Shown in pieces: positions 3,922 through 20,127 of a stretch of 32,000 bases of DNA. A program made the translations under genes and the position numbers. Source of the DNA: Moritella sp. JT01 (GTDB lineage Bacteria; Pseudomonadota; Gammaproteobacteria; Enterobacterales; Moritellaceae); contig NZ_LOCN01000024.1 in NCBI RefSeq assembly GCF_001574435.1, forward strand, positions 130,793 to 162,792, read 5' to 3'. The notes beneath the pieces were generated by a model. That model was not told the DNA's origin and searched no databases. It was given only the letters and a program-made list of their open reading frames with translations. Each line of letters begins with the position of its first letter. Positions within the stretch are counted from its first letter, which is position 1.

Positions 3922-4156
3922 AACGAAAAGTATGAGATAGAAAACCATTCTTTTTATAGGGTGAAAGCATACTTGGAAAACTTGTATTACAGAGTGGTAA
4001 TTTAGATAATGTAATCAGCTGTTGAAGCGCAGATTTGTTTATTTATTATAGTGTTAAGTAAACTAACTGGTAATTTGAAATATATTTTAGAGATGGTTTT
4101 ATTGATAAAACTATTGTAATGAAAAGCTTATTTAAGCAATTTAAAAGGATGATAAA

Positions 4157-4636: not shown

Positions 4637-4649
4637 GTTTGCTGGTTTC

Positions 4650-4682
4650 ACAGTTGGGTGACTTAAACAGTTGCCCAACTGT
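4650..4682 (+). promoter_or_regulatory. Intercistronic stem-loop between hcp and vgrG (possible partial terminator or RNA-stability element)
   Basis: ACAGTTGGG (4650-4658) is perfectly complementary to CCCAACTGT (4674-4682), with a 15-nt loop, followed by TTCGTT. It lies 14 nt after the hcp stop. Confidence 0.3.
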
Positions 4683-4712
4683 TTCGTTACACTTGTTCAG
4701 TTAGGAAATAAA

Positions 4713-6614
4713 ATGGCAGCGGCTACTCAACAACATTCAATGATGAAAATCACCACACCATTGGGTGGTGACGCCTTACATATTACGGCCGTATCAATGC
4801 AAGAAAGCATATCTGCTTTGTACGAAATTAATGCCTCGGTGTATACCACAAATAGTGAGCTGGATTACCAAGCGCTACTGGGTCAATCGGTAACCATTGA
4901 ACTTGCTGTTAAAGATTCTTCTGGCAACTACACAAGAAATTTTAATGGTCTTGTAACAAGTATCAGTTCTCAGGGGCAATCTTATGAAGCACTGAATAAT
5001 ACCAGTAAATATTACCGTTATACCTTAATTATTTCACCGCAGCTTTGGTTAGCAACTATGCGAAGTAATTGCCGTATCTTTCAAGACCTCTCCGTTATCG
5101 ATATTGCGTCATTAATATTTCCTGAGCATAATATTCAGTTTGTTAACAATGCAGGTACTACATTTAAGCCCTATGAATACTGCGTTCAGTATCATGAAAC
5201 TGATTATCAACTTTTGACTCGATTATTTGCTCAGGAAGGTATATATTTTTACTTTAAGCAAAGCAGTGGGTCTAATTCCGTTATATTAGCAAATTCAACG
5301 ACTTCACATGTGAACTGTGCCGAAAGTCCTTTGCTACAATCAGATGAAATTATTTCTCATGCTTACGTCTCCACTTGGTCGTCATTGGCCGCAGTTAAAC
5401 CCGGTAAGGTGAGCTTAAGAGCTATTAACTTTGAACAGCCCTTAATGAATATTGACGGTAGTTCAGTTAATGCTGAGTTTACAGGGCAAGATAATTTAGA
5501 ACATTTTGAATATGTTTCTGGGCATAAAAATTTAGCCGCATCAAATTCATTTTCAGCAACACACTTAGAACAATTACAATCAAACAAAGCTATTTTTAAA
5601 GCCAACTCAAATTATGTGACGATTGAAAGTGGTAAGGTGATTGCTTTTTCTAAGCACGCAACACAAAGCCTTGTGGGGCCTGAATTCCTTATTACACGCA
5701 ACCATTTTATGGCGAGTCAAGGCTCGCAGCTTGATGTTAATTCAAAAAATGGTATGGAGATCAATTCTAATTTTTGTTGTGTTGAAAATACGCCAAACTA
5801 TCAGCCGATTATAAATATAAATAAACCAATCATTCGTGGTGTGCAAACGGCCATTGTAACGGGGGCTGCGTCGGACGAGATATATGTTGATTCTTACGGA
5901 CGCATTAAAGTTAAATTTTATTGGGATAGGCTAGGTACATCAGACGAGAACAGCTCTTGTTGGATCCGAGTTTCTCAAAATTGGGCGGGTAAAAACTGGG
6001 GCGCATTCTTTTATCCCCGTGTAGGGCAAGAGGTATTAGTATCATTCTTAGATGGTGATGCTTCACAGCCTATTGTTATTGGTGCTATTTATAATGGCGA
6101 TCAAATGCCCGTGAATCCTTTACCGGCCAACAAAACTCAAAGTGGTATTCGGACTCACTCAACAACAACTAACGGTAATGCAAACTGTAACGAACTGATT
6201 TTCGAAGACAAAATCGGCAGTGAATTGTTAGGCTTGCGTGCCGAGAAGGATCATCAATTAGTTGTCGTTAATAATCAGACCGACACTGTAGGTAATGACC
6301 GAACAACAACGGTCACCAATAATGACACATTGACAGTGACCAATGATCAAACGCAAACCGTCAATAACGACCGTAATAGTCAGATCGCTAATAACGATAC
6401 GCTCGATGTTGGCAATATACTTAAACTTAAGGCTGCAACGGAGATTAAGCTTGAAGTGGGTGCGGCTAGCTTATTAATGAAAAGTGACGGAACGATAAAG
6501 CTTTCTGGCGTTAATATCGAAATATCAGGGACAAATGTCAAAGTTAAAGGCACTGCAACTAATATCGAAGGGGCAATGGTTGTCGTGAAAGGCTCTGTCG
6601 TTAAAATTAATTAA
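4713..6614 (+). CDS. vgrG: Type VI secretion spike protein VgrG (TssI), no C-terminal effector extension
   Basis: The track ORF opens at a TTG (4671). I prefer the ATG at 4713, which has an AGGAAA SD 4 nt upstream, giving 633 aa. gp27/gp5-like core: RGVQTAIVTG, YVDSYGRIKVKFYWDR, SCWIRVSQNWAGKNWGAFFYPRVGQEVLVSFLDGDASQPIVIGAIYNG. The C-terminus is a beta-helix repeat region (TVGNDRTTTVTNNDTLTVTNDQTQTV...). Confidence 0.9.
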   Translation: MAAATQQHSMMKITTPLGGDALHITAVSMQESISALYEINASVYTTNSELDYQALLGQSVTIELAVKDSSGNYTRNFNGLVTSISSQGQSYEALNNTSKYYRYTLIISPQLWLATMRSNCRIFQDLSVIDIASLIFPEHNIQFVNNAGTTFKPYEYCVQYHETDYQLLTRLFAQEGIYFYFKQSSGSNSVILANSTTSHVNCAESPLLQSDEIISHAYVSTWSSLAAVKPGKVSLRAINFEQPLMNIDGSSVNAEFTGQDNLEHFEYVSGHKNLAASNSFSATHLEQLQSNKAIFKANSNYVTIESGKVIAFSKHATQSLVGPEFLITRNHFMASQGSQLDVNSKNGMEINSNFCCVENTPNYQPIININKPIIRGVQTAIVTGAASDEIYVDSYGRIKVKFYWDRLGTSDENSSCWIRVSQNWAGKNWGAFFYPRVGQEVLVSFLDGDASQPIVIGAIYNGDQMPVNPLPANKTQSGIRTHSTTTNGNANCNELIFEDKIGSELLGLRAEKDHQLVVVNNQTDTVGNDRTTTVTNNDTLTVTNDQTQTVNNDRNSQIANNDTLDVGNILKLKAATEIKLEVGAASLLMKSDGTIKLSGVNIEISGTNVKVKGTATNIEGAMVVVKGSVVKIN

Positions 6615-6650
6615 ACTTATTTTATTATCTGGTTTTAGAAAAGGATTTTT

Positions 6651-6938
6651 ATGGGAATGCCAGCTGCAACAATGACGAGTTTTCATGTATGCCCTGCGTC
6701 AACTAGTCGTGTGCCTCATATCGGCGGTCCTGTGATCGTCGGTTCGCCTACTGTGCTGATTGGAGGGCTCCCTGCGGCAAGGTTGGGTGATAAAATGGTA
6801 TGTTGTGGACCACCAGACACGATTGTGAAGGGATCTGCGACGGTACTCATTAATGGTAAACCTGCTGCTCGAATGGGGGATGCCGCTGCACATGGTGGAA
6901 AAATTGTTGCAGGTGTACCAACCGTGTTAATAGGTTAG
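6651..6938 (+). CDS. PAAR-domain spike-tip protein (stand-alone, no toxin domain)
   Basis: 95 aa. Repeated PAAR-type motifs: GLPAARLGD, GKPAARMGD, and the PTVLIGG/PTVLIG ends. Sits immediately after vgrG with an AAGGA SD. Confidence 0.9.
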   Translation: MGMPAATMTSFHVCPASTSRVPHIGGPVIVGSPTVLIGGLPAARLGDKMVCCGPPDTIVKGSATVLINGKPAARMGDAAAHGGKIVAGVPTVLIG

Positions 6939-6946
6939 GGATTGAT

Positions 6947-8095
6947 ATGGATGTACAGTCTCTACTTTCGCTGATTGGCCAGGTTGAAACCTACTTTCAA
7001 CAGCGTGAACGTTGCTTTGACAATTGCTGGTCAACGCATTTACAACTCAAGCAACTTGACCAGCAAGCCGCAGGTTGGTTTTATTTATTAACGCAACAAC
7101 GTGATGCATTACCAACTTTAGATATAGATAAACCCACTTGGCTTGATTTATTATTAGCACAAACTGTCACCGAGTTAGTGGAACTCGTCAAACATCGCAC
7201 TGCGATTAATGGTAGCGATAAGGTTTGTCTGCAATGGTGGTCTCAACGTCATAATGGTGCTGCGTTAATTGCTGCGCTTATTACACTGGAAGCCACAGCA
7301 AAGCAATCATCAACACCGCAGAGTTTGTTAACACAAGAATTGTTATGTGTTATAGCCACTGCAACACCTGTCATTAGCGATCAATTCAATTTTCTTCATG
7401 TCGATAATATTAAGCCCTGTATTCATTTTATTAACCAACATTTGGGCAAAGCATCGCATATCTGGTCTAGTCACTTTTTAGACGCAGAAACGACAGAACC
7501 AAACAGTAAAAAGTTATTAGCCTTGAGCTTATGTCGAGGTACGTTTCCTGTGAACTTGCCTGTATTAAGCAGCGTGTTATTAGCAGACAAATCTTTATTG
7601 AAACAATATGTTGTTCAAGCCGATAGCCGTTTGGTGGGTGTGGTAATCAATGAATTGTCTGCCCATAACGACAATGCCAAATTTGTATTATCACTCATGG
7701 CATTTAGCGGATATAAGCAATTCATTCCTTGGTTGATCCAAATGTTAACCGCTGGTTTTTTAAGTCACGCTGCTTTTGCTGCTTTGCATACCTTGTTAGG
7801 GGCTGACTTTGAGGCGCAACTACCTGCTAAATTATATGGCGAGTACGAACCTGAATCTAAAGTAGACTTGCTGGTGGCGTTGAAACAGTCATTGAGTGAT
7901 TGGTGGATATTACACCGCGATGAATTCCCAGAGCGTATATTGGCGGGTAAACCAATTAATGAATCAAATATAGACTTTATCTGGCAGCAAGGAAACATTT
8001 CGCAATGCGAGGTTGCTGCTTATCACTATTGGTGCATGAAGGCTGAACATCGTTTAACGGATGCGCGTGGGTTTAATATCGGAGGTATGCTATGA
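6947..8095 (+). CDS. T6SS-associated hypothetical protein, predicted all-helical (HEAT/ARM-like repeat; possibly TIGR02270-like)
   Basis: 382 aa with no signal peptide or TM segment. Leu/Ala-rich helical composition with HEAT-like stretches (SHAAFAALHTLLGADF). It starts 8 nt after the PAAR stop and overlaps the next gene by 4 nt (ATGA). The family assignment is from memory of similar PAAR-adjacent genes and is unverified. Confidence 0.55.
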   Translation: MDVQSLLSLIGQVETYFQQRERCFDNCWSTHLQLKQLDQQAAGWFYLLTQQRDALPTLDIDKPTWLDLLLAQTVTELVELVKHRTAINGSDKVCLQWWSQRHNGAALIAALITLEATAKQSSTPQSLLTQELLCVIATATPVISDQFNFLHVDNIKPCIHFINQHLGKASHIWSSHFLDAETTEPNSKKLLALSLCRGTFPVNLPVLSSVLLADKSLLKQYVVQADSRLVGVVINELSAHNDNAKFVLSLMAFSGYKQFIPWLIQMLTAGFLSHAAFAALHTLLGADFEAQLPAKLYGEYEPESKVDLLVALKQSLSDWWILHRDEFPERILAGKPINESNIDFIWQQGNISQCEVAAYHYWCMKAEHRLTDARGFNIGGML

Positions 8096-9045
8096 AATTT
8101 ACGGTAGTCGATTATGCCGGTGAGTTTGGTTGTCATCCTAATTCAATCGATTCTGTTTTGACTGGGCTAACACCGGATATAGCCTTAACAGAGCTTGCTG
8201 CATACGCGCAATTTAAGCCCGTTAAACAAGTCGCGTTTACTCAATCAGAATTGGCTGATAACCGTATTGACCGATGGCAAATATTGATTAACGCTGCGTT
8301 AGCAAACTCGAATTTAATTGAATTAAGTCAAGATGCCCCGGTATTGATGGTGCTGCCTTATGTCGATGCTAAATTTAGCCAGATGCAGAATCACTTGATT
8401 GATTCTGTGATTGATATTTTACCTGCGTGGACAAGGCACCCTAATAGTCATTATTACTTGCTGGGAAGTGCGGGGTTTTATCAGGCATTGCGCCAAGCGG
8501 ACGTATTACTCAGTGCAGGTATGGAACAGGTGGTGATTGGTGCAGTAGACAGTTGGGCGACAGAGCAAGGCTTGTTAAAGTTTATTAGCAAGTTCAGTGA
8601 TTATGGCTCTGTTGTATTACCTGCTTCAGAAGGGGCTGTCTTTATTGTGTTGTCTCGGCTGTCACAGGGTATAGAGGTGTTAGGTTGTGGTATGGATGTG
8701 GTGATTGATCGACATGCTCCAAGTGGCCTAATTGCAATTATTGCGGATCTTGTCGCTAAACAAACTCAACCTGTACAGTATTTGTCGCTGTGTCATTCCG
8801 GAGATGAAAGCTTAGATCAAGTCGGGCACAATACACTCTGTGCTATTTCAGGGCTTTACGATGCCAATACTCAGTTTTTAACGCCACAAATTACGCAAGG
8901 CGATATTGGCGCTTGCTATAGCTTATTACATTTTTTACTCAGTTATCATCATTATAAACAGCATATCTGGCAGGGAACTAGCCTACAAATTGATACGTCG
9001 TCGTTGCCTTATGTTGGCGCTGCGATTTATCGCTGGTGTGACTGA
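8092..9045 (+). CDS. T6SS-associated thiolase-fold / beta-ketoacyl-synthase-like protein with a degenerate active site
   Basis: 317 aa. By-eye alignment to the KAS pattern. LLGSAGFYQALRQADVLLSAGMEQVVIGAVDS resembles ..ACASG..Ai..A...I..G.advvlaGG.eS, with Ser at the nucleophile Cys position. ASEGAVFIVLSRL resembles GEGAgvlvLe.l. QGDIGACYSLL resembles GH.lGAAG, with Asp at the His position. Translationally coupled to the upstream gene. Confidence 0.5.
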   Translation: MKFTVVDYAGEFGCHPNSIDSVLTGLTPDIALTELAAYAQFKPVKQVAFTQSELADNRIDRWQILINAALANSNLIELSQDAPVLMVLPYVDAKFSQMQNHLIDSVIDILPAWTRHPNSHYYLLGSAGFYQALRQADVLLSAGMEQVVIGAVDSWATEQGLLKFISKFSDYGSVVLPASEGAVFIVLSRLSQGIEVLGCGMDVVIDRHAPSGLIAIIADLVAKQTQPVQYLSLCHSGDESLDQVGHNTLCAISGLYDANTQFLTPQITQGDIGACYSLLHFLLSYHHYKQHIWQGTSLQIDTSSLPYVGAAIYRWCD

Positions 9046-9437: not shown

Positions 9438-12086
9438 ATGAAGAAAACAATACTATATTTGTCTGCGAGTGCTATTTTCTCGTTGACGGCACATGCTGAT
9501 ATTTTAATTTCTGAATATATTGAAGGGAGTTCGTTTAATAAAGCCATTGAAATAGCGAATACAGGTAATGAACTTGTTACGTTAATCGGCTATGAATTAG
9601 CAAAGTCTGCGAACGGCAATAATGAATGGGGTAACCGTTTGCCGTTAGATGGCATCGCTATTGGCGCGGGCGATGTGTTTGTGTTGGCTCATAGCGATGC
9701 TAACGCCGATATTTTGTCTAATGCGGACATGACTGATACTAACGTGATTAGCTTTAATGGTGATGATCCTATCGCGTTATTATTGAACGGTGAGGTACAC
9801 GATATCATCGGTGTAATGGGCGATCAAAACTTTGGTAAAGACGTTACCTTAGTAAGACAAAGTCGCATTGCAGCTACTATATACAAGGAATCAGATTGGC
9901 TTGTTAAGGCAAAGAATAATAGCGATGGCTTAGGTTCGTTAGACTCATCTGGTGGCGGTTCTGATAATGGCGGGGAACCTGATACTATTATCGAATCGAC
10001 AATTATGGCACTTCAGGGAAATGGTTGGTCCTCTCCCTATACAGACCCTACAACTGAAAAATACATCTCAGACGAAACGTTCCTAATTGAAGGTATTGTC
10101 ACGGCCATTCAAGTTAATGCTTTAGGTAATGATTTACCACAAGGGTTCTTTATTCAAGATGAACTGGGCGATAATGATGTGACAACATCTGATGGTATTT
10201 ATGTCTCAGGTTTTATAACGGGTCTATCTATCGGAGATAAGGTTGCGGTTACTGGTAAAGTCAAAGAGGATTACGGCTGGACTAAGGTACAAGCAACAAA
10301 TGTAGACGTGATTGGTAATGGCACGATACCTGTAACAAATGTAAGGGCAGCAAGTGACGATGGTGATTTTGATTTTACATTAGAAAGACATGAAGGCATG
10401 TTCGTTAATATTGACCAACAAGCAGATATGTATGTTGCACGTACTTATGGCTTTGACTATGGCCCATTTCGTAACAACATGGTGATAGCCAAGTCTGGCC
10501 TTAACCTGCACCCCAATCAATTGAATATTCCCGCTTCTGCAGGTGCAAACTCGCAACGTGATGATAACGAAGATAGACGCATTATCGTGGAAACCATGAT
10601 TAAAGCGCCCAACGGTGCCCCTCTATGGTATCCAACATTCGGTCAAGATGATGGAACGGGTACCACAAACGACTATATACGTAATGGTGACTTAGTTAAC
10701 GGGTTAGAAGGTGTGCTAGGCTATTCTTACGGTGATTTTAGACTTTATATTACTAACCAAGCTGACGAATTTACTTTTATTCATGCGAACCCTCGATTAT
10801 CTCGTCCTGATGTTACAGGCGAGGGACTACGCATCGCCACTTTCAATGTTTTAAACTACTTTAATTCTCCTTTTGACGGAGCTGCGAACCCCACTGGGAC
10901 GAATCGTGGCGCTACGACTTATGCCGAATTTGAATTACAAGGCGATAAGATCGCGGCTGCTATTTTGGCTTTAGATGCAGATATTATTGGTTTAATGGAA
11001 ATCGAAAATAATGGTTTCGGTGATAGTTCTGCAGTCGCTTATTTGGTTGATAAAGTGAATTCATTATTACCAGACGTTGAGCAATATGCATTTGTCACAA
11101 GCCCTGATAGTGCGGGTTTTATTGGTAGTGATGCCATTGCTAATCAAGTGATTTACAAACCTTCGATGGTGACGCTTGATACTTACCGAATCATTAAGAT
11201 GCCTGAGCAACATGCAGGTCAAACGGGTAAAGAAAATGGTGACAACTATCAACGCGATGCGATAACGCCAACGTTTAAGGTTAATGACTCAGAAGAGTTG
11301 GTCACTGTCTCTGTTAATCATTTCAAATCTAAGGGGTCTACGTGTTGGGAAGATGTTGCTATTCAGAATGGCGAAGATGTTGGCTTACAAGGTTCTTGTG
11401 AGCACTTACGTGTTTCAGCGGCTCAACATTTGGGTAATGAAATGGCGTTAATTGCGGGTAATAAGCTGATCATTGGTGATCTTAATGCTTATGGGCAAGA
11501 AGACCCGCTACTTGTGTTAACAACCATGCCCGAAAACCACAGCGTGATGCCTGCACGTATGACATACATAGGTGACGAACCAATGGCGGGAAGTAATCCA
11601 AACGCTATCTCTGATTCATTTGGGTTTGTTAATGTGATCAGTGAACAGCATCCTGCCGCGTACAGTTATATTTATAACGACACTGTCGGTACACTCGATT
11701 ATATTTTAGTAGACAGTGAAACTGCATCAAAAGTGGTCGATGCAAATGTGTGGCATATCAATGCATCAGAATCAAAGTTGTTTGAGTATTCGTCAAAATA
11801 TACTGCAGACTTAGCTAAGTACCCTGATTTATTTAGATCGTCAGATCATGAACCCGCTATTGTTATTTTGGATGTATTAGGCGATGCTGACCAACCTGAC
11901 CAACCTGACCAACCTGACCAACCTGACCAACCAACGCCACCGTCTGGTACTGATGACACAACAAGTAACGATGATGACGAAGAAGAATGGTATGGCGGCT
12001 CTACTGGCTTATTATCACTTGGTTTCTTAACTGGTTTTGCTTTGTTTCGACGCTTCGGTCAACGATATATTAAGATGAACAGATAA
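9438..12086 (+). CDS. Extracellular endonuclease, ExeM/NucH-like (lamin-tail domain + endonuclease/exonuclease/phosphatase domain) with a GlyGly-CTERM sorting signal
   Basis: 882 aa. Signal peptide MKKTILYLSASAIFSLTAHA. LTD-like N-terminus (ILISEYIEGSSFNKAIEIANTG). EEP-type core (LRIATFNVLNYF, IIGLMEIENN, VNHFKSKG, GDLNAY, SSDHEP). The C-terminus YGGSTGLLSLGFLTGFALFRRFGQR has a GG motif, a TM helix and a basic tail. Confidence 0.85.
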   Translation: MKKTILYLSASAIFSLTAHADILISEYIEGSSFNKAIEIANTGNELVTLIGYELAKSANGNNEWGNRLPLDGIAIGAGDVFVLAHSDANADILSNADMTDTNVISFNGDDPIALLLNGEVHDIIGVMGDQNFGKDVTLVRQSRIAATIYKESDWLVKAKNNSDGLGSLDSSGGGSDNGGEPDTIIESTIMALQGNGWSSPYTDPTTEKYISDETFLIEGIVTAIQVNALGNDLPQGFFIQDELGDNDVTTSDGIYVSGFITGLSIGDKVAVTGKVKEDYGWTKVQATNVDVIGNGTIPVTNVRAASDDGDFDFTLERHEGMFVNIDQQADMYVARTYGFDYGPFRNNMVIAKSGLNLHPNQLNIPASAGANSQRDDNEDRRIIVETMIKAPNGAPLWYPTFGQDDGTGTTNDYIRNGDLVNGLEGVLGYSYGDFRLYITNQADEFTFIHANPRLSRPDVTGEGLRIATFNVLNYFNSPFDGAANPTGTNRGATTYAEFELQGDKIAAAILALDADIIGLMEIENNGFGDSSAVAYLVDKVNSLLPDVEQYAFVTSPDSAGFIGSDAIANQVIYKPSMVTLDTYRIIKMPEQHAGQTGKENGDNYQRDAITPTFKVNDSEELVTVSVNHFKSKGSTCWEDVAIQNGEDVGLQGSCEHLRVSAAQHLGNEMALIAGNKLIIGDLNAYGQEDPLLVLTTMPENHSVMPARMTYIGDEPMAGSNPNAISDSFGFVNVISEQHPAAYSYIYNDTVGTLDYILVDSETASKVVDANVWHINASESKLFEYSSKYTADLAKYPDLFRSSDHEPAIVILDVLGDADQPDQPDQPDQPDQPTPPSGTDDTTSNDDDEEEWYGGSTGLLSLGFLTGFALFRRFGQRYIKMNR
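11889..11933 (+). repeat. 9-bp tandem repeat x5 (GACCAACCT) encoding (DQP)5 in the nuclease linker
   Basis: Four perfect GACCAACCT units plus GACCAACCA, read directly from the sequence. In frame, between the EEP domain and the acidic/GlyGly-CTERM tail. Confidence 0.95.
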
Positions 12087-13889: not shown

Positions 13890-13915
13890 ATATACCCCAA
13901 CGAGTTGGGGTATAT
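13890..13915 (-). terminator. Rho-independent terminator of the minus-strand five-gene operon
   Basis: ATATACCCCAA (13890-13900) pairs with TTGGGGTATAT (13905-13915) around a CGAG loop. On the minus strand CTTATTTAAA follows. It lies 28 nt past the MotB-like stop. Confidence 0.65.
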
Positions 13916-13942: not shown

Positions 13943-14608
13943 TTAAGGCCTACGAATGTAAATGACAGCGCGACGGTTTGCTGCTCTAGCTGCGTGTACA
14001 TCCTTAGTTGTACTTAATTCGACTTTGGGTCTTGAGTCAGCATAAGCAACTGCTTTCAGTTCCTTTTTTTCAACACCTTGTTGCTCAAGTCGTTTAACAA
14101 TTACAACGGCTCGAGCGCTCGATAACTCCCAGTTTGATGGGTAGAGTAGGGTATTGATTGGAATGTCGTCAGTATGACCTTCAATTTCAATCAGCTGGTT
14201 TTTGACATTTGAGTTATTAATGACGTCAGCAATTTGATCAATCACAGGTAACATCTGTGATTTGATCTCCGCATCACCAGAGCCATAAAGGGCCTTATTA
14301 GAAAACTCAATCTTGATACCTTTTTTATCAATACTGACATCGACTAATTCAGTCATGTTATTTTTTTCAAGTACACTCGTAATGTCTTTTTTCAATTCAC
14401 TAAAAGGCATAGAGGTCTTTGTGGTGCTGGTTATCGATGTGATACCTTGCTCGAGCTCTTGTAAACGACCTTCATTTACTTCTGATACACTGACCAGAAT
14501 AACAAAGAATGCGAGCAATAACGTGATCGCATCACTGTATGTGACTAACCAACCATTATCGTCTTGATCGTTTAATTGCGAGGTAGACGGAGGTCTTTTT
14601 AATCTCAT
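13943..14608 (-). CDS. MotB/OmpA-family stator subunit (peptidoglycan-anchored ion-channel partner)
   Basis: 221 aa. A single TM helix carries the conserved channel Asp (GWLVTYSDAITLLLAFFVIL, compare MotB TYADLMTLL). C-terminal OmpA-like domain (IEIEGHTDDIP, SNWELSSARA, NRRAVIYI). The start overlaps the MotA-like stop (ATGA). Confidence 0.85.
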   Translation of the reverse strand: MRLKRPPSTSQLNDQDDNGWLVTYSDAITLLLAFFVILVSVSEVNEGRLQELEQGITSITSTTKTSMPFSELKKDITSVLEKNNMTELVDVSIDKKGIKIEFSNKALYGSGDAEIKSQMLPVIDQIADVINNSNVKNQLIEIEGHTDDIPINTLLYPSNWELSSARAVVIVKRLEQQGVEKKELKAVAYADSRPKVELSTTKDVHAARAANRRAVIYIRRP

Positions 14609-15396
14609 TTACCTAACTCCGTCATTTTATGTTTGGGCGCTAGGTAACAGTTTAATCTGTCTTGAATATACAAATTATCTTTATTTTCTGTTATCAACTC
14701 AAAACCAGCTGTTATAATTTGACGCTCGAAGAAAATGCGGTGCTGTCTTCTTGCGATGCGAATTGCAGATGGCTTAAAGAGTAGCTGTGCTAACAATGTA
14801 CCGTACAATGTCGTTAATAGAGCAATGGCAAGGCCTTTGCCTAATTCAGACAAATCACCACTCATATTATCAAGCATGATAATTAAGCCAATTAAAGTAC
14901 CAACCATACCAAAACTAGGGGCATATATTGAAAGTGTATTAATGACATTTACGTGTTCATTTCTACGTTGAAAATCACTTTCATTCGTGTCGTCAAGCAT
15001 ACTAGAAAGAACTTTCGATTTATAACCTGTACCCAATAACTCCATTGCATTGATAATGAAATCATCCTTTTTTTCTTTCTCAGTCAAACTATTTTCTAAC
15101 GCTGTAATACCTTGCTTTTTATATATATCATTCCATTCGACAATACGATTAACAAGTTGCTTTAATTGTTTGTGTTGGTTCTTTTCGTCAAGCAGATTAA
15201 CCATCATTTCGGTAAATGCGGCCCAAATCAAACGAAACGAGTAACTGATTAAGGTGGCACCAAAAGTTCCGCCAAGCACGATAAGTAAACTGAATAGGCT
15301 TACAAATATCAGGTAATTATCAGTGCTTTTAAAAATTGCGTAAACGAATAAACCGACTGCACCTAATATGCCTACGAAAGTACTAATTGAAATCAT
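14605..15396 (-). CDS. MotA/PomA-family stator subunit (MotA/TolQ/ExbB proton-channel family)
   Basis: 263 aa with four TM segments and a large cytoplasmic loop between TM2 and TM3. Conserved prolines are in MotA-like context (YAPSFGMVGTLIGL and LLTTLYGTLLAQLLFKP). Confidence 0.85.
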   Translation of the reverse strand: MISISTFVGILGAVGLFVYAIFKSTDNYLIFVSLFSLLIVLGGTFGATLISYSFRLIWAAFTEMMVNLLDEKNQHKQLKQLVNRIVEWNDIYKKQGITALENSLTEKEKKDDFIINAMELLGTGYKSKVLSSMLDDTNESDFQRRNEHVNVINTLSIYAPSFGMVGTLIGLIIMLDNMSGDLSELGKGLAIALLTTLYGTLLAQLLFKPSAIRIARRQHRIFFERQIITAGFELITENKDNLYIQDRLNCYLAPKHKMTELGK

Positions 15397-15399
15397 TTA

Positions 15400-17220
15400 T
15401 TATCCCTTTAAATCATTCATAGTGAAACGACCTGAATTGAGCAACTGTCTTACTGCTACAACAATGTCTTGTTGCGCTCGAGCTATGCTTTCTTGATCTG
15501 GCACTTCGAGTTGTTTTATCTCAAATAGCAGCGCTGATTTTAATTTAACAGGCAGATCTGTTAATGCATGTTGAATTTGCTCTTCTTCAAAAGAGTGCAA
15601 ACCAATGGCCACTATTTTACGCTCAAGGTTACGCAATGCATCGGCAAGTACTAACGTTGGTGTCTTCAATACATCATCAAAGCAATAAAATTTCTCACGA
15701 ATTTTTATGTAGGTTTCTGGGGAGTTTTCTTTAAGCTGCGTTAATAATGCTTGCTGCTCGTTTAGCGGTAAACGATCTAACATTCCAAGTAACAACTCAG
15801 TGCCATCTGCATTGATGTGCTCGAAGTCTGGTACATGCCGTGATTTCTTGGCTAGACGCTGTGCAATCTCGTTAAACGTTGCGACTGGGAAGTTATGGAA
15901 CTGTCCAATTTCAACTGCAACTAATGCACGCTCAGTAGGGCTTAATTGTTTTAATACAGCCGTTGATTTTAATTCTTCAAGCTGTATTAAAACTAACGCT
16001 TTTATTCTTGGTGGTTCTTCTTTAATTAACCAAGATATTTGATTGTCGGTTAATTTTTGAAGGTAAGAAAATGGTTTATGTGTAACTGCTTCAGCATCAT
16101 TTTCTATGTGAGTCAATAACTGTAGTAGATCATTTAGACTAGTGATCAAAGCAGGGTAATCTTTTTGCTCTTGCTTAAGGTAGTTTATATATTGTGGAAT
16201 TTCATGCACAAGATTAGGGAAAATAGAAGTGAATATCGAACGACCTAATGTTTGATATGAAGCTGCTAACAGTGGCATATTTTGCTCGTTTAAAGCGATG
16301 TTAGCTACGGTGGTTTGGATTTTGTCCGGAGATGCTAAACTCAAGCTGATAATTCGCTGACGAAGTGCTTGTACATCTTGTTGCTGTTGCATTAATAATG
16401 GTTCAGCGGATGGTGGTGTACTATCTATTTCTTCGCGAGGCTCTTTCTTATTTGTATTCCGTAACAATAATACTAATAGAAGCATAATCAAAACAGATAA
16501 TAATATAATTAGCCAATTGATCCAATCTTGATACCAAGGCGCTTGTGTTAAATCGTCAAGATCTTGAACAGTCGTTGTTGGAAAATTAGTTGCTGTGATC
16601 GTTAATGTATCCCCTCTAAAAGGGTTGTAATTTAACTTTTCAGTAAGTAAATTTCTTAGGAATACAACTTGTTCGTTATTAACCGTGTTAGTCACTAATA
16701 GCTTAGTGTGAAGTACTCGCAATTTTTTTTCTGACGTGTCCTTACTTCTTGGTTGATTGGCTTGTTTTACTTGATTTTCGAGTAACTCAGCTTGTTTGGT
16801 AATTGTTTGCTCCATCTCTGCAATTTGAGCTTTTGCCTGCGCTACTACTGGGTTGACAGCAAGTTCTTTAGGCGTATTACTTGGTAAAGCTGGTAAGTCA
16901 AATTCATCTTCAGTTTCAGGTGTTAATGCTGAAGGCGTTTGATTACTCTGTTCTGGACTTTGCACTTGTTCCGGAGTGGTATGTGAGGCTTGAGGTTGTC
17001 CGTTATTATTCGTTAAATCTTGAGCCCTAGGCGTCGTTAATACTTCAGCTCTAATCGAAAGTATAAAGCTATCATCACCGAGATAGGCTTCGATATCTCT
17101 ATTCAGCCTTTCTTCTAAGCCTTGACTTAACTCGAGTGATTCAATTTCATTTGCCATAACCAGTGGTGTGAGCACAAGTAATATAGCTAATAATAAAGAT
17201 TTAAAAATAGTCATAATCAT
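15400..17220 (-). CDS. Bitopic membrane protein: FliF-C-terminal-like periplasmic segment + TM helix + FliG-like (middle and C-terminal domain) cytoplasmic region
   Basis: 606 aa. An N-terminal TM or signal segment is followed by a periplasmic part with a P/Q/T-rich linker and a coiled coil. KLRVLHTKLLVTNTV...EQVVFLRNLLTEKLNYNPFRGDTLTITATNFP resembles the FliF ring-building-motif end (recalled as ..RGDTLNVVNSPF). Then a TM helix (WLIILLSVLIMLLLVLLL). EEPPRIKALVLIQLE resembles FliG EHPQTIALIL, FYCFDDVL resembles F.FEDI, and ARAQQDIVVAVRQLLNSGRF resembles EAQQKIV..IRRLEE.GEI. The start could be the second ATG at 17214. Confidence 0.7.
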   Translation of the reverse strand: MIMTIFKSLLLAILLVLTPLVMANEIESLELSQGLEERLNRDIEAYLGDDSFILSIRAEVLTTPRAQDLTNNNGQPQASHTTPEQVQSPEQSNQTPSALTPETEDEFDLPALPSNTPKELAVNPVVAQAKAQIAEMEQTITKQAELLENQVKQANQPRSKDTSEKKLRVLHTKLLVTNTVNNEQVVFLRNLLTEKLNYNPFRGDTLTITATNFPTTTVQDLDDLTQAPWYQDWINWLIILLSVLIMLLLVLLLRNTNKKEPREEIDSTPPSAEPLLMQQQQDVQALRQRIISLSLASPDKIQTTVANIALNEQNMPLLAASYQTLGRSIFTSIFPNLVHEIPQYINYLKQEQKDYPALITSLNDLLQLLTHIENDAEAVTHKPFSYLQKLTDNQISWLIKEEPPRIKALVLIQLEELKSTAVLKQLSPTERALVAVEIGQFHNFPVATFNEIAQRLAKKSRHVPDFEHINADGTELLLGMLDRLPLNEQQALLTQLKENSPETYIKIREKFYCFDDVLKTPTLVLADALRNLERKIVAIGLHSFEEEQIQHALTDLPVKLKSALLFEIKQLEVPDQESIARAQQDIVVAVRQLLNSGRFTMNDLKG

Positions 17221-17222
17221 CC

Positions 17223-17786
17223 TTATTTATCACCCATTTTAGTTAATGCGTTCTGAACATCTTCGTATGATGGATCAAGTTCTAATGCTTTATTCCATGC
17301 GGCTCTTGCATTGGCATAGTTTTTCATTCTGTAATTCACGCTACCTTTAAGTGCGTGAGTTTGTGCAAGACTAGGCGCTGCTTTAATCGCATCTTCGACT
17401 TTAACAAGAGCCTCTGGGTAATCTTTATCTACAGCAAGTTGTTGAGCCGCAGATAATAAGCGTAATGCCTTACCTATATCTTCTGATGCTGGTTCTTCTT
17501 CATCTAATATGTCTTCGAACAGCTCGAGGTCGTCTTGATTGTTGATAAGTTCTGCTGCATTTATTTCCTCATCGTTTTCGATCTCGAATATAATATCGCT
17601 ACCAAGTACGTTAAATGCGACTTTTGATTCGTAGTAAGTTCCCTTATGTCGAAGGGATAATACGCCTAGTTCTAATGGGTTACCTGCTGCATCTGTAATT
17701 GCTTGTACATGATTATCATGATTATCTTTTTTAGCACTACATGCGGTAAGGGTGATAAGCATGCATAAAGTAATTATCTGTTTCAT
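17223..17786 (-). CDS. TPR-repeat lipoprotein
   Basis: 187 aa. Lipobox LTLTAC, with the Cys at residue 16. Acidic linker (DILDEEEPASED). C-terminal TPR-like repeats (YPEALVKVEDAIKAAPSLAQTHALKGSVNYRMKNYANARAAWNKALELDPSY). Confidence 0.75.
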   Translation of the reverse strand: MKQIITLCMLITLTACSAKKDNHDNHVQAITDAAGNPLELGVLSLRHKGTYYESKVAFNVLGSDIIFEIENDEEINAAELINNQDDLELFEDILDEEEPASEDIGKALRLLSAAQQLAVDKDYPEALVKVEDAIKAAPSLAQTHALKGSVNYRMKNYANARAAWNKALELDPSYEDVQNALTKMGDK

Positions 17787-17795
17787 ATTCTGTCC

Positions 17796-18920
17796 TTAGA
17801 GACGGAAGCTAAGTGTAATATCGAAGCTTATGCCACCAAATGTAATCTCTGATGCATAGCCTGATTTAGAACCTGCATCGATATTATGTTTAGGGACGCT
17901 AATGATGCCTAGTTCTAACGAACCATTATCGGGGAAGCTAATTTCAGTACCTACTCTAAACGCAACGGCATGGTAATTTTTGAATAATATTTGACCAATA
18001 CCGATATAAGGTTTGAATTTAATTTTTTGGTTCCAATCTGGCATTAATAATAAAATTCGACCTTCGATGTTTACACCGGCTAAGTTTATAATGTCTCTAT
18101 TTTCAAGGTTTGTGATCGCATCAAAGATAATTGCGTAATCAAGGTAAGGTGTGAAACCTGAAGATTTATTGTTACGCACACCAATTGTTGTGAACTTATC
18201 TACAATCGTAGCTTTACCTGTGCTTGTGTTTAATCGTTTAGCTTCAAGACCCCAAACACCTAAAGTAACTGCCCAGTCTGATTTTTTTGAAAAACCAATA
18301 TCCGAATTTATCTCAACGGTTTCAGATATATTTTTAGCCCATATCACATCCATCGTTTTTGCATTAACAAGTTTTAGTTGCAGATCGTAAACGTCATCAT
18401 GAACTGATGCATCCCACATTAGAAAAGCATTCGCACGAATGTCTTTCGCCATTGTTTGTAATTCTTTATTTGTTTCGGCGCTATGTTTCACACGCACACT
18501 GCCATTTTTTACAGTGATATATGTTTTAGAGCATTGAACACATGTTTTAACTCGTATGTCGTTGTCAATAAGGCTTAATGATAATTTATTTTCGATTAAG
18601 CTTAATGTTGTTTTGTCTAGTTGGTGCTGTAATCTATCACCGGTATGGTAGAGGGCAACTGTTCTAATATTTTGATCAGAAAGTTCCCAGGGAAGTTCTC
18701 CCCAGATATCTTTACGGTCAAAAATATTTAAAAATACAAGGTATGATTGGCTAGGGGTAATATTCGATGGCGTTAAAGCTTGATGAGTTATTTCTGATTG
18801 TTCGTCATTGTCGGTAATTTCTGCGGAATTGCTGAATGGGATATATGCGATTGAAATTATACAAAAAGAAAAAAGATATAAAAAGAATGATTTTTTTATA
18901 TCAAAAAATGAACGTGTCAT
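17796..18920 (-). CDS. Secreted protein with a periplasmic N-domain (FlgO/CsgG/LpoB-like pattern) and a C-terminal outer-membrane beta-barrel-like region
   Basis: 374 aa. Signal peptide ending SNSA. The N-domain segment AKDIRANAFLMWDASVHDDVYDLQLKLVNAKTMDVIWAKNI resembles the lg.dyvl.G.v...g..y.l.l.lvd..tg.viw pattern of FlgO/CsgG/LpoB-type domains. The C-terminal 170 aa has an alternating hydrophobic pattern ending FDITLSFRL. The domain calls are by eye only. Confidence 0.55.
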   Translation of the reverse strand: MTRSFFDIKKSFFLYLFSFCIISIAYIPFSNSAEITDNDEQSEITHQALTPSNITPSQSYLVFLNIFDRKDIWGELPWELSDQNIRTVALYHTGDRLQHQLDKTTLSLIENKLSLSLIDNDIRVKTCVQCSKTYITVKNGSVRVKHSAETNKELQTMAKDIRANAFLMWDASVHDDVYDLQLKLVNAKTMDVIWAKNISETVEINSDIGFSKKSDWAVTLGVWGLEAKRLNTSTGKATIVDKFTTIGVRNNKSSGFTPYLDYAIIFDAITNLENRDIINLAGVNIEGRILLLMPDWNQKIKFKPYIGIGQILFKNYHAVAFRVGTEISFPDNGSLELGIISVPKHNIDAGSKSGYASEITFGGISFDITLSFRL

Positions 18921-19242: not shown

Positions 19243-20127
19243 ATGTCTGATGTTGTAATTCATCAAGTACGACCAACTAAGGTTCTTTTTACTCAAGGAA
19301 TCATGCAATCTTTAACTCAAGTACAGTGGGTTGAGCAAACAGACACCAGTACTTATGTGGTTACTGAAAAAACACCGTTTCACCCGGTAAGTCATATCTG
19401 GCCAGATCATCCTGCGGATAAAGGGTTTTTAGTATTTAACGGTAAGCAATACACAGTCACAGATTGCGTGACGGGTGCTTTTGATATTGAAAATAGTAAG
19501 CTATATAAAGGTACAGATATACCAGTAAAACGTGGCGAGCCCGGCTGGTATTTTGTTGTCTTACACGAATTAGAATTAGACATGGCATTAAACATTAATG
19601 ATGCTGTTGAATTAGTTGTTGATGCAAGGTATCAAACGGCGTTAAGTCGGGGGCACAGTGCAGGGCATTTGGCTTCTTATGCGTTAAATAAGGTTTTAGA
19701 ACAAGGTTACTGGCGTAAAGATGCATCACGCAAAGATGTATTAAATAATCGCGACTTTCATTCATACGCACAAACATTAAGTTTGGTCTCTGAAAACAAA
19801 TCGACGGACAGTTACCGTTTAGGTAAAACGTTGAAAAAACGAGGCCTTAATGTGGCAGAAATACTTGCAGATCTATCACTCATTGAAGCGAGGGTTAATG
19901 ACGTACTGGCAACCTGGCTTGCGACTAACGCATCTGTTGTGATGAAGTGTGAAGGTGATACGCTTACAGACTCTCGCTTTTGGTGTTGCGATTTAGGTAT
20001 TGGAGAAAGTATCACTATGCCTTGTGGAGGCTCACATGTGCAAAGTTTGACTGAATATAAAGATATAACGATTGAGTTAACATTTAAGTCTGACCAAGAA
20101 CTAGAGATGATCACAAAGGCTAATTAA
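19243..20127 (+). CDS. AlaX-like alanyl/threonyl-tRNA-synthetase editing-domain (tRNA_SAD) metal-dependent hydrolase
   Basis: 294 aa. TPFHPVSHIWPDHPADKG resembles the AlaX N-terminal TiFyP.gGGQ..D.G. Zinc-binding HxxxH (RGHSAGHL) and CxxxH (PCGGSHV) motifs are present. Confidence 0.7.
   Translation: MSDVVIHQVRPTKVLFTQGIMQSLTQVQWVEQTDTSTYVVTEKTPFHPVSHIWPDHPADKGFLVFNGKQYTVTDCVTGAFDIENSKLYKGTDIPVKRGEPGWYFVVLHELELDMALNINDAVELVVDARYQTALSRGHSAGHLASYALNKVLEQGYWRKDASRKDVLNNRDFHSYAQTLSLVSENKSTDSYRLGKTLKKRGLNVAEILADLSLIEARVNDVLATWLATNASVVMKCEGDTLTDSRFWCCDLGIGESITMPCGGSHVQSLTEYKDITIELTFKSDQELEMITKAN

What the first reader, a model, noticed from the sequence alone, without database searches (positions are those of the whole stretch)
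15400..17220. Single polypeptide resembling a miniature FliF (MS-ring end) fused through a TM helix to FliG middle and C-terminal domains
Seen in the sequence: the periplasmic segment ends in KLRVLHTKLLVTNTV...EQVVFLRNLLTEKLNYNPFRGDTLTITATNFP. This closely resembles the last ring-building motif of FliF just before its second TM helix, which I recall in Salmonella as ...RGDTLNVVNSPF. A TM helix follows. The cytoplasmic half then shows FliG hallmarks: EEPPRIKALVLIQLE versus EHPQTIALIL, FYCFDDVL versus F.FEDI, and ARAQQDIVVAVRQLL versus EAQQKIV. In the segment aligned to the FliG torque helix (PVKLKSALLFEIKQLE) charged residues are only partly retained. Established knowledge: in flagella FliF and FliG are separate proteins that bind 1:1, and engineered FliF-FliG fusions are functional in Salmonella. 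A natural, much shortened fusion encoded directly upstream of its own stator would be an unusual minimal rotor. A long P/Q/T-rich disordered linker and a coiled coil replace most of the FliF periplasmic rings.
Basis: partly seen in the sequence, partly recalled or inferred. Interest (0 to 1): 0.8.

Follow-up and report, generated by a model that had tools for sequence, protein, structure and literature searches.

The report
Non-flagellar single-chain FliF–FliG rotor with stator
A Moritella gene encodes the last ring domain of the flagellar MS-ring protein FliF fused to a whole FliG rotor protein, and it sits in a conserved five-gene operon with its own sodium-type MotA/MotB stator and two outer-membrane partners, which looks like an undescribed rotor–stator machine working outside the flagellum.

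Summary
ORF 15400..17220 (−) encodes a signal peptide and a periplasmic domain homologous to FliF RBM3 plus its collar loop. One TM helix follows, then a FliG. Pfam scores FliG_M and FliG_C above threshold. The family profile hits solved FliG at E 2e-35 and Salmonella FliF residues 233-527 at E 1e-10.

FliG_N, and probably the FliF C-tail, are also present. The P/Q-rich loop is not a replacement, because it aligns with FliF's own collar loop.

The gene lies in a tight five-gene operon: OM β-barrel protein, TPR lipoprotein, FliF–FliG, PomA-like MotA, MotB. This set recurs in Oceanospirillales, in other unassigned lineages and in a Bacteroidetes MAG. In Marinimicrobia the rotor is split into two genes.

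The two flagellar rotor–stator charge pairs are kept on both sides. The FliM-binding EHPQR motif, RBM1/RBM2 and all export, rod and switch genes are missing. dN/dS is 0.1–0.2.

Most likely this is a self-contained, non-switching, ion-driven rotor–stator module that acts on an outer-membrane complex. Rotation and output are inferred. I found no paper describing it.

The parts
15400..17220 (-). FliF(RBM3)–TM–FliG single-chain rotor protein (606-aa ORF; likely start at 17214, 604 aa)
   Evidence: ORF. 100% identical to the Moritella sp. JT01 protein P0001. Pfam FliG_M and FliG_C above threshold. Family profile hits both FliF and FliG among solved structures. dN/dS 0.11-0.18.
17152..17220 (-). Signal-peptide-like N-terminus (residues 1-23, ...PLVMA|NE); takes the place of FliF TM1, RBM1 and RBM2
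   Evidence: Read from the sequence. Hydrophobic N-termini are common among relatives. Cleavage is inferred, not tested.
17029..17133 (-). RBM3a-like segment (residues 30-64: helix, then β-hairpin)
   Evidence: AF2 gives a helix to residue 47 and strands 52-64. The segment aligns with Vibrio, Salmonella and E. coli FliF from about residue 231. RBM3a is Salmonella FliF 228-270 (PMC11739650).
16735..17028 (-). Collar-equivalent loop (residues 65-162): P/Q/T-rich disordered stretch, LPALP motif (109-113), helix 124-154
   Evidence: pLDDT <50 for 65-122; helix 124-154. An LPGLP-type motif occurs in 90 of 116 representatives against 9.4 in shuffles. It aligns with FliF VPGALSNQP.
16582..16734 (-). 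RBM3b-like segment (residues 163-213: β-α-β, RGD at 202-204)
   Evidence: hhalign against E. coli FliF 374-472, probability 96%. AF2 strands 163-177, helix 182-195, strand 205-211.
16456..16533 (-). Transmembrane helix (residues 230-255), equivalent to FliF TM2, followed by a K/R-rich cytoplasmic flank
   Evidence: AF2 helix 230-255. Aligned with the FliF TM2 region. Internal TM helix in 116 of 124 representatives.
16093..16404 (-). Cytoplasmic helices 273-376: probable FliF C-tail-like helices plus a FliG_N-like domain
   Evidence: Foldseek aligns about 326 columns to full-length FliG. The only PDB sequence hits are FliG_N, E 0.3. Pfam FliG_N in 3 of 20 members. Targeted HMM test: 13 bits against E. 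coli FliG 8-62, and a weak co-linear match to a FliF-tail+FliG concatenate. dN/dS 0.03-0.04.
15832..16068 (-). FliG_M domain (about residues 385-463); EHPQR motif degenerate (EPPR...E)
   Evidence: Pfam FliG_M, E 7e-12. Only the Glu of EHPQR is conserved across the family, in 123 of 137 sequences.
15421..15804 (-). FliG_C domain (about residues 473-600) with torque helix LPVKLKSALLFEIKQLE; K559 = Ec R281, E567 = Ec D289
   Evidence: Pfam FliG_C, E 9e-13. Residue correspondences from hhalign. Family-wide, the R281 position is R/K in 119 of 137 sequences and the D289 position is E/D in 61 of 137.
14605..15396 (-). MotA/PomA-like stator A subunit (263 aa)
   Evidence: Pfam MotA_ExbB, E 1e-19. Best NCBIfam match is PomA, E 8e-41 but below the equivalog cutoff. 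PomA 8bri, E 8e-26. K93 = R90, E101 = E98, P160 = P173, P209 = P222, T167 = PomA T158.
13943..14608 (-). MotB-like stator B subunit (221 aa): plug, ion-binding Asp26, OmpA-like peptidoglycan-binding domain
   Evidence: Pfam MotB_plug E 7e-14 and OmpA E 6e-14. D26 aligns with E. coli D32 and is invariant across the cassettes. The start overlaps the motA-like stop by 4 bases.
17223..17786 (-). Lipoprotein (lipobox LTAC, Ser at +2) with a C-terminal TPR
   Evidence: Sequence. Pfam TPR_2/TPR_1 at residues 141-174. Conserved next to the rotor gene in all cassettes examined.
17796..18920 (-). Outer-membrane protein (374 aa): signal peptide, LpoB/TolB-N-like periplasmic domain with an invariant CxxC, and a C-terminal β-barrel of about 10 strands
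   Evidence: No Pfam or NCBIfam family. AF2 model with barrel pLDDT about 90. Foldseek hits OmpA, NspA, OmpX and OmpW barrels, plus LpoB, the TolB N-domain and PelC. Homologues end in ...RF. Homologous partner in the distant cassette L024, hhalign 97.5%.
13890..13915 (-). Intrinsic-terminator-like hairpin closing the operon
   Evidence: 11-bp stem followed by a T-run, 28 bases after the motB-like stop. It is the only such site on the − strand of the region.

Best explanation
The five genes 18920..13943 (−) encode a self-contained, non-flagellar rotor–stator machine built from flagellar-motor parts.

The 606-aa protein is FliF cut down to its S-ring domain (RBM3 plus its collar loop) and second TM helix. 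It continues without a break into the FliF tail and a complete FliG.

Inferred: it oligomerises through RBM3 into a membrane ring that carries a cytoplasmic FliG ring. The co-encoded PomAB-like units are anchored to peptidoglycan by their OmpA-like domain. They conduct ions (probably Na+) past Asp26 and push on the FliG_C torque helix through the two conserved charge pairs: MotA-like K93 with FliG-like E567, and E101 with K559.

There is no RBM1/RBM2, export gate, rod or FliM/FliN, and the EHPQR motif is lost. The ring therefore cannot export or switch.

The only periplasmic output is the collar-equivalent loop with its conserved LPGLP motif. I infer that this loop engages the two outer-membrane partners, the TPR lipoprotein and the β-barrel protein with an LpoB/TolB-N-like domain. 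Ion-motive force would then be delivered to an outer-membrane or periplasmic process, much as in a Tol–Pal or TonB system but with a flagellar rotor as the transducer.

Shown: the homologies, the domain anatomy, operon conservation, charge conservation and purifying selection. Inferred: ring formation, rotation, loop–partner contact and the physiological role.
For: Homology of both halves.

Operon: tightly packed (gaps of 9, 2 and 3 bases, then a 4-base overlap) with a terminator after motB.

Conservation of the gene set: same five genes in the same order in 17 complete Oceanospirillales loci at about 30% identity, plus 2 contig-truncated ones. Order permuted in L024 and in the Bacteroidetes MAG L020. 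Same order again in L027. Rotor split into fliF-like and fliG-like genes in Marinimicrobia.

Charges: MotA R90/E98 pair with FliG D289/R281 (PMC7564593 abstract). Both pairs are conserved here and in most cassettes. Two relatives without adjacent MotAB have lost the torque-helix charges.

Stator essentials (plug, Asp, two Pro, Na+-type Thr) are intact.

dN/dS is 0.11-0.18 for the rotor gene, 0.03-0.10 in its cytoplasmic domains and 0.07 for motA.

The LPGLP motif is strongly enriched. The partner protein folds as an OM barrel plus an LpoB/TolB-N/PelC-like domain.
Against: No oligomer was modelled or observed. RBM3-only ring formation is extrapolated from FliF.

Only 2 of the 5 classical torque-helix charges are kept. 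The D289 position is acidic in only about 45% of family members, and some cassettes deviate (L027).

Some relatives lack adjacent MotAB (L026, L028).

The AF2 model has pTM 0.29, and the loop is low-confidence.

Nothing identifies the output or the cargo. The single Bacteroidetes example is a MAG and could be mis-binned.

The hosts named so far (Moritella, Vibrio, Oceanospirillales) are flagellated genera by general knowledge, so cross-talk with the flagellum is not excluded.
Confidence: 0.55

Rival explanations
1. A static docking or regulatory complex. The FliF–FliG protein is a membrane scaffold that recruits and gates the MotAB-like ion channel, for example as an envelope tether, mechanosensor or Na+-entry device. 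It does not rotate continuously.
For: Three of five torque-helix charges are lost and acidic conservation is moderate. There is no axle, bushing or filament to turn. The MotB-like OmpA domain, the TPR lipoprotein and the OM protein with a TolB-N/LpoB-like domain resemble envelope-tethering and PG-regulating parts. Some relatives lack adjacent MotAB.
Against: The stator keeps every residue needed for ion-coupled rotation, along with the rotor-facing charges, and these are matched on the FliG side. 5:2 stators are understood to work by rotation (general knowledge). The FliG domains are under the strongest constraint in the protein.
Confidence: 0.2
2. An accessory or alternative rotor component of the host's ordinary flagellum, or of a cryptic second flagellar system.
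For: The named hosts belong to flagellated marine genera (general knowledge). NCBI names the protein 'flagellar motor switch protein FliG'. The stator is of the PomA/MotP type.
Against: No other flagellar gene lies in the window or next to any cassette. RBM1/RBM2, which house the export gate, are absent. The FliM-binding EHPQR motif is lost. All equivalog cutoffs are missed: FliG 60 vs 226.7 bits, PomA 140 vs 341 bits. The module also occurs in a Bacteroidetes MAG.
Confidence: 0.1
3. A MotAB-based anti-phage system of the Zorya kind.
For: The MotB-like protein matches ZorB models (E 1e-19), and the MotA-like protein matches ZorA marginally (E 6e-4).
Against: These matches reflect shared MotAB ancestry. 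At 263 aa the MotA-like protein has no room for the long ZorA tail: the matching ZorA models are 461-590 positions long and only their first ~100 positions align. There is no ZorC/D/E, and the other three proteins hit nothing convincing in PADLOC (only a weak PDC-M14B hit, E 7e-4, for the TPR lipoprotein). The locus is syntenic among Moritella strains rather than island-like.
Confidence: 0.03
4. A decaying remnant of a lost flagellar locus.
For: Large parts of FliF are missing, and the classical motifs are degenerate.
Against: The reading frames are intact. dN/dS is 0.03-0.3 in every segment. The five-gene set is conserved across very distant lineages. More than 100 clusters at 50% identity share the architecture.
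Confidence: 0.02

Closest known systems
Flagellar rotor core: FliF (MS-ring) plus FliG (C-ring top), and the engineered FliF–FliG fusions of Salmonella and Vibrio (PDB 8z4d; PMC11481574, PMC6079021)
   Same: Same order of homologous parts: RBM3a, collar loop, RBM3b, TM2, FliF tail, then FliG N-M-C. The family profile hits both halves of 8z4d co-linearly. The R281 and D289 equivalents are kept. Marinimicrobia have an adjacent-gene (split) form with overlapping stop and start, like fliF-fliG.
   Different: No TM1, RBM1 or RBM2; a signal peptide stands in their place. The collar loop is predicted disordered plus helical rather than a β-collar. EHPQR is lost, as are the K264, D288 and R297 equivalents. 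There are no fliE/H/I/M/N, flh or flg genes nearby. The fusion is natural, not engineered. The TIGR00207 equivalog cutoff is missed.
Chlamydiaceae natural FliF–FliG fusion (Bergeron 2016, PMC4768692)
   Same: A naturally fused, shortened FliF with a C-terminal FliG-like part, found in an organism or context without a flagellum.
   Different: As described in that paper, the chlamydial protein is about 330 aa. It keeps an RBM2-like region and a further RBM-like region. Only its cytosolic region is homologous to FliG_M, and it is proposed to interact with the injectisome. The protein here has RBM3, a full FliG with the torque helix, a dedicated MotAB and OM partners. I did not align the two directly.
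PomAB/MotPS sodium-type flagellar stators
   Same: Best matches of both subunits. Four TM helices with a large cytoplasmic loop, the R88/K89/E96 equivalents, the Pro pair, PomA T158/T185/T186-type threonines, a plug, the ion-binding Asp and an OmpA-like domain.
   Different: Scores are far below the equivalog cutoffs. The genes are co-transcribed with a non-flagellar rotor gene rather than standing alone or lying in a flagellar or chemotaxis cluster.
Tol–Pal and TonB–ExbBD trans-envelope energisers
   Same: Overall logic: a 5:2 inner-membrane motor, a transducer reaching into the periplasm through a Pro-rich segment, an OmpA-like PG binder, a TPR protein (compare CpoB) and a TolB-N-like domain at the outer membrane (PMC12204202).
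   Different: The motor is of the flagellar (MotA) type, not TolQ/ExbB (TolQ and ExbB E>0.01). The transducer is a FliF–FliG rotor, not TolA/TonB. There is no β-propeller TolB and no Pal lipoprotein. The resemblance is architectural only.

Membership tests
FliG (flagellar motor switch protein) | FliG_M and FliG_C domains | tested here: met
   Pfam scores of 45.9 and 48.8 bits are above the cutoffs of 25 and 23.3. Family profile against Aquifex FliG, E 2e-35. Foldseek E 3e-10.
FliG (flagellar motor switch protein) | FliG_N domain that binds the FliF C-tail | tested here: inconclusive
   The structural alignment covers full-length FliG. The sequence signal is weak: E 0.3 among PDB sequences, and Pfam FliG_N in 3 of 20 members. 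It is clear only in the split relatives, E 1e-18.
FliG (flagellar motor switch protein) | Orthologue-level score (TIGR00207 / NF004260 equivalog cutoffs) | tested here: not met
   60.1 bits against a cutoff of 226.7, and 16.5 against 550.
FliG (flagellar motor switch protein) | EHPQR motif (FliM-binding surface of FliG_M) | tested here: not met
   The window has E402-P-P-R, and E437 at the R160 position. Family-wide only the Glu is conserved.
FliG (flagellar motor switch protein) | Torque-helix charged residues (Ec K264, R281, D288, D289, R297) | tested here: inconclusive
   R281 is K559 and D289 is E567, so both are kept. K264 is H542, D288 is F566 and R297 is D575, so these three are lost. 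Family-wide the R281 position is 87% R/K and the D289 position 45% E/D.
FliG (flagellar motor switch protein) | Free cytoplasmic protein of about 330 aa encoded in a flagellar gene cluster | tested here: not met
   606 aa with a signal peptide and a TM helix. No flagellar genes in the 32-kb window.
FliF (MS-ring protein) | RBM3/collar region (Pfam YscJ_FliF_C) | tested here: met
   Met at family level. The window alone is sub-threshold at 13.5 bits. The family profile hits Salmonella FliF 233-527 at E 1e-10, hhalign gives 96% and Foldseek gives probability 1.0. Relatives and the split FliF-like gene pass the Pfam threshold.
FliF (MS-ring protein) | RBM1 and RBM2 (Pfam YscJ_FliF), which house the export gate | tested here: not met
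   No such hit. Homology to FliF begins at about residue 231, where RBM3a starts.
FliF (MS-ring protein) | Two TM helices flanking the periplasmic region | tested here: inconclusive
   A C-terminal TM equivalent is present. The N-terminal hydrophobic segment looks like a cleavable signal peptide (VMA|NE). Cleavage was not tested.
FliF (MS-ring protein) | Assembly into a ring of about 34 subunits | not testable with these tools
   No multimer prediction or experiment was available.
MotA/PomA–MotB/PomB flagellar-type stator | MotA_ExbB channel domain, large cytoplasmic loop with R90/E98 equivalents, P173/P222; MotB plug, ion-binding Asp, OmpA-like domain | tested here: met
   K93, E101, P160, P209, D26, plug at residues 17-56, OmpA at 108-203.
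MotA/PomA–MotB/PomB flagellar-type stator | Orthology to a named flagellar stator (NCBIfam equivalog cutoffs) | tested here: not met
   PomA 140 bits against a cutoff of 341; MotD 167.5 against 283.
Zorya anti-phage system | ZorA with a long C-terminal tail, plus ZorC/D or ZorE | tested here: not met
   Only marginal similarity to the ZorA TM region, and no other PADLOC component.
Chlamydial FliF–FliG fusion | About 330 aa, RBM2-like region, FliG_M-only cytosolic part | not tested
   Compared only with the published description. No chlamydial sequence was aligned here.

The most novel reading that the evidence does not exclude
This is a previously unrecognised class of bacterial rotary machine. 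A minimal flagellar-type rotor (an RBM3 ring plus a FliG ring in one polypeptide) is driven by its own Na+/H+ stator. It has no export apparatus, axle or switch. It transmits torque or force through its collar loops to an outer-membrane complex made of a β-barrel protein and a TPR lipoprotein. It is either a surviving relative of a pre-flagellar rotor–stator stage or an offshoot of the flagellar motor put to a new envelope function.
Probability: 0.4. Interest if true: 0.9.

Novelty: new variant of a known kind. Interest (0 to 1): 0.8.

Why it matters
FliG and MotAB are known to work together only inside the flagellum. A recent survey notes that about 11% of non-motile species keep a rotor protein without a filament, and asks whether rotor parts have other functions (PMC12199754).

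This operon offers a concrete, widespread and genetically compact candidate. It has five genes, and some hosts can be cultured (Moritella, Vibrio nigripulchritudo, V. agarivorans, Thalassolituus). Rotor–stator coupling could therefore be studied without the roughly 40 other flagellar genes.

If the ring turns, it would be the smallest known FliG-based rotor. It would also be a new route for carrying ion-motive force to the outer membrane. It would make testable the question of whether a rotor–stator pair could have existed, or can exist, independently of type III export. That question is central to arguments about how the flagellar motor arose.

Tried and rejected
The other nine and five papers read found no description of this family. 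The only natural fusion found was the chlamydial one. The library holds open-access papers only, so a subscription paper could have been missed.

Protein searches: the profile search with A1 through the word-indexed protein search returned the same 15 proteins as the single-sequence search.

Genome scan: alignment A1 was too diverse for the scan, so the narrower A2 was used. This biases the 19 loci toward Oceanospirillales.

It was repeated with database homologues.

Distant partners: hhalign of orf374 against the Bacteroidetes 370-aa neighbour was not significant (3.5% and 18%). The link is only transitive, through L024 (97.5%, then blastp 1e-4). The L027 and L028 partners could not be linked.

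Taxonomy: cluster look-ups gave few organism names for distant members.

Rejected readings: Zorya, a decaying remnant, and a plain mis-annotated FliG (signal peptide, TM helix and FliF half).

The FliF C-tail assignment rests on a 7-bit targeted alignment, so I treat it as a lead only.
Full report
**What is there.** The window matches Moritella sp. JT01: the target protein is 100% identical to an NCBI entry of that strain, named there 'Flagellar motor switch protein FliG'. ORF 15400..17220 on the minus strand encodes 606 aa. The second ATG, at 17214, lies five bases after an AAGGA and is the annotated start.

The gene is the third of five tightly packed minus-strand genes:
- 18920..17796: 374 aa, no known family.
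- 17786..17223: 187-aa lipoprotein with a TPR.
- 17220..15400: the target.
- 15396..14605: MotA-like, 263 aa.
- 14608..13943: MotB-like, 221 aa.

The gaps are 9, 2 and 3 bases, followed by a 4-base overlap. A strong hairpin plus T-run follows at 13915..13890. It is the only terminator-like site on that strand of the region.

**The cytoplasmic half is FliG.** Pfam scores FliG_M (393-463, E 7e-12) and FliG_C (495-600, E 9e-13) above the curated cutoffs. A 24-sequence family alignment (A1) hits Aquifex FliG at E 2e-35, along with every other solved FliG. hhalign against E. coli FliG gives 97% probability for residues 392-602 against 115-324. The AF2 model (mean pLDDT 74) matches full-length FliG structures over about 326 columns (E 3e-10).

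That length implies FliG_N is present as well, although the sequence signal is weak. The 258-392 region finds only FliG_N among PDB sequences, at E 0.3. Three of 20 members hit Pfam FliG_N. A targeted HMM comparison gives 13 bits to E. coli FliG residues 8-62. It also gives a weak co-linear alignment in which 'RQRIISLSLASP' lines up with the FliF tail 'SQRIREMSDNDP', immediately before FliG_N. I treat the tail assignment as a lead, not a result.

**The periplasmic half is the C-terminal third of FliF.** On its own the window protein is below the Pfam threshold for YscJ_FliF_C (E 0.1), though the match spans the whole profile. The family evidence is stronger:
- The family profile hits Salmonella FliF 233-527 (E 1e-10) and Vibrio FliF (E 1e-7). 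It hits both halves of the engineered Vibrio FliF–FliG fusion 8z4d in the same order.
- hhalign against E. coli FliF 374-472 gives 96% probability.
- Foldseek places the model on RBM3/S-ring structures with probability 1.0 and TM-score per target of 0.5-0.57.

By the published boundaries (RBM3a 228-270, β-collar 271-381, RBM3b 382-438, TM2 455-475; PMC11739650), the protein starts exactly at RBM3a. TM1, RBM1 and RBM2 are absent, and a signal-peptide-like segment takes their place.

The loop between the two RBM3 halves (residues 65-162) is predicted to be a disordered P/Q/T-rich stretch followed by a helix. It is not foreign to FliF. Its LPALP motif aligns with FliF's VPGALSNQP, and E. coli FliF is also P/Q/N-rich just after that motif. 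An LPGLP-type motif occurs in 90 of 116 family representatives, against 9.4 expected from shuffles. So the loop is a diverged collar loop with one conserved short motif.

**Rotor–stator interface.** In flagella, MotA R90 and E98 pair with FliG D289 and R281 (PMC7564593). Here:

| Flagellar residue | Equivalent here | Source |
|---|---|---|
| FliG R281 | K559 | |
| FliG D289 | E567 | |
| MotA R90 (PomA R88) | K93 | |
| MotA E98 (PomA E96) | E101 | |

Both pairs are therefore preserved as complementary charges. The equivalents of K264, D288 and R297 are lost (H542, F566, D575).

Across 137 family members, the R281 position is R/K in 119 and the D289 position is E/D in 61. Most cassettes show R/K plus E on the stator side and K/R plus E/D on the rotor side. 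The two relatives without adjacent MotAB have lost the rotor charges, but that is only n=2.

The stator is otherwise complete:
- plug;
- Asp26 (E. coli D32), invariant;
- P160 and P209 (E. coli P173 and P222), invariant or nearly so;
- Thr167, where PomA has its Na+-binding T158 and E. coli MotA has Ala;
- an OmpA-like domain.

The FliM-binding EHPQR motif is reduced to its Glu, and no fliM or fliN is nearby.

**The partners.** The 187-aa protein has a lipobox (LTAC, Ser at +2) and a C-terminal TPR.

The 374-aa protein has no Pfam, NCBIfam or PADLOC family. Its AF2 model has a C-terminal β-barrel of about 10 strands with pLDDT about 90. That barrel matches the OmpA, NspA, OmpX and OmpW barrels. 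The N-terminal α/β domain matches the LpoB C-domain (TM-score per target 0.55), the TolB N-domain and PelC. Homologues end in the ...RF typical of outer-membrane barrels, and they carry an invariant CxxC.

**Distribution.** An exhaustive HMMER search of 1.84 billion cluster representatives gave 1300 hits, 211 of them below 1e-10. Most of the top 150 are 550-780 aa long, and 116 of 124 full-length ones have the internal TM helix.

Named members are Moritella spp., Vibrio nigripulchritudo, V. agarivorans and Vibrio sp. SCSIO 43136.

| Locus or lineage | Gene content and order |
|---|---|
| 17 complete Oceanospirillales loci (Oleispira, Thalassolituus, Bermanella, Gynuella and others), plus 2 contig-truncated ones | five genes, same order |
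| L027 | five genes, same order |
| L024 | rotor, OM protein, TPR, MotA, MotB |
| Bacteroidetes MAG L020 | 370-aa protein, TPR, MotA, MotB, rotor |
| Ca. Neomarinimicrobiota (L031) | rotor split into a 504-aa FliF-like gene (YscJ_FliF_C only, E 1e-9) and an overlapping 310-aa FliG with clear N, M and C domains; MotAB and several TPR genes alongside |
| L026, L028 | no MotAB nearby |

The orf374 family is demonstrably homologous to the L024 partner (hhalign 97.5%). It links only transitively or weakly to the others.

**Selection.** Against Moritella sp. 5 and a 71%-identical contig, dN/dS for the rotor gene is 0.18 and 0.11. It is lowest in the cytoplasmic domains (0.03-0.10) and highest in the loop (0.3). 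The value for motA is 0.07. The locus is syntenic between Moritella strains. It is not a remnant.

**Interpretation.** The evidence supports a self-contained module made of a single-chain FliF(RBM3)–FliG rotor protein, a cognate and probably Na+-driven MotAB-type stator, and two outer-membrane proteins. It lacks everything the flagellum needs for export, an axle, a bushing, a filament and switching.

The most economical mechanism is as follows:
- RBM3 builds a ring.
- The stator turns or loads that ring through the conserved charge pairs.
- The collar loops pass the work to the outer-membrane partners, with the LPGLP motif a plausible ligand for the TPR or the TolB-N-like domain.

Ring formation, rotation, the loop–partner contact and the physiological role are all inferences.

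The part list invites comparison with Tol–Pal: a PG-binding OmpA-like domain, a TPR protein, a TolB-N/LpoB-like domain and a Pro-rich periplasmic segment. That comparison is architectural only.

The rivals, in order of weight, are a non-rotating scaffold or channel regulator, an accessory to the host flagellum, a Zorya-like defence system and a decaying remnant. They are weighed in the rival-explanations section.

**Novelty.** The individual domains are known. A natural FliF–FliG fusion has been described in Chlamydiaceae, but it is a different, shorter protein without FliG_C or a stator. Engineered full-length fusions are functional and structurally solved.

I found no description of this family or of the five-gene module in the searchable literature. 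NCBI gives its members only a generic domain name. I therefore rate it a new variant of a known kind. There is a substantial chance that it is a distinct class of machine.

Noticed in passing
L031:3993-7933 and L032 (Ca. Neomarinimicrobiota MAGs): A split version of the rotor. A 504-aa FliF-like gene (YscJ_FliF_C only) has a stop that overlaps the start of a 310-aa FliG with clear N, M and C domains. MotA and MotB precede it, and four TPR genes surround the set. The torque-helix charges there are R, D, E, closer to the canonical pattern.
   Followed up: partly
window 16882-16896 (residues 109-113, LPALP) and family-wide: An LPGLP-type motif is conserved in the otherwise variable periplasmic loop, in 90 of 116 representatives against 9.4 in shuffles. 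It aligns with the VPGALSNQP motif of the FliF β-collar. It may be a binding site for the TPR or OM partner.
   Followed up: partly
window 18531-18542 (orf374 residues C127..C130): An invariant CxxC pair sits in a low-confidence loop of the LpoB/TolB-N-like domain of the outer-membrane partner. It could be a disulfide or a metal site; its role is unknown.
   Followed up: no
L026:7001-9316 and L028:7001-9334: Family members of 771-777 aa have no MotAB nearby. One is followed by a KAP NTPase, the other by a Sel1-repeat protein. Both have lost the torque-helix charges. This may be a stator-independent subfamily, but n=2.
   Followed up: partly
window 17212-17224: The ORF's first ATG (17220) overlaps the Shine-Dalgarno-like AAGGA. 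The ATG at 17214 is the likelier start, giving 604 aa as in the NCBI record.
   Followed up: yes
window 1324-9045: Type VI secretion genes ClpV (1324-3921), Hcp (4157-4636) and VgrG (4671-6614) are followed by two ORFs with no family (6947-8095 and 8092-9045). In Moritella sp. 5 the same two ORFs lie next to a PAAR gene, so they may be an effector/immunity pair.
   Followed up: no
window 9438-12086: An 882-aa secreted nuclease-like protein with a lamin-tail domain and an endonuclease/exonuclease/phosphatase domain. It carries a (PDQ)n repeat and a C-terminal hydrophobic tail followed by basic residues, which looks like a sorting signal.
   Followed up: no
window 19243-20127: A 294-aa ORF with no Pfam family is divergently transcribed from the operon. 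It is conserved at the same place in Moritella sp. 5 (L029 3080-3964) but is not part of the cassette in other genera.
   Followed up: no
window 27068-29998: A 976-aa membrane sensor protein with 7TMR-DISM, PAS, GGDEF and EAL domains (c-di-GMP turnover) lies about 8 kb from the operon. No link to the operon was tested.
   Followed up: no
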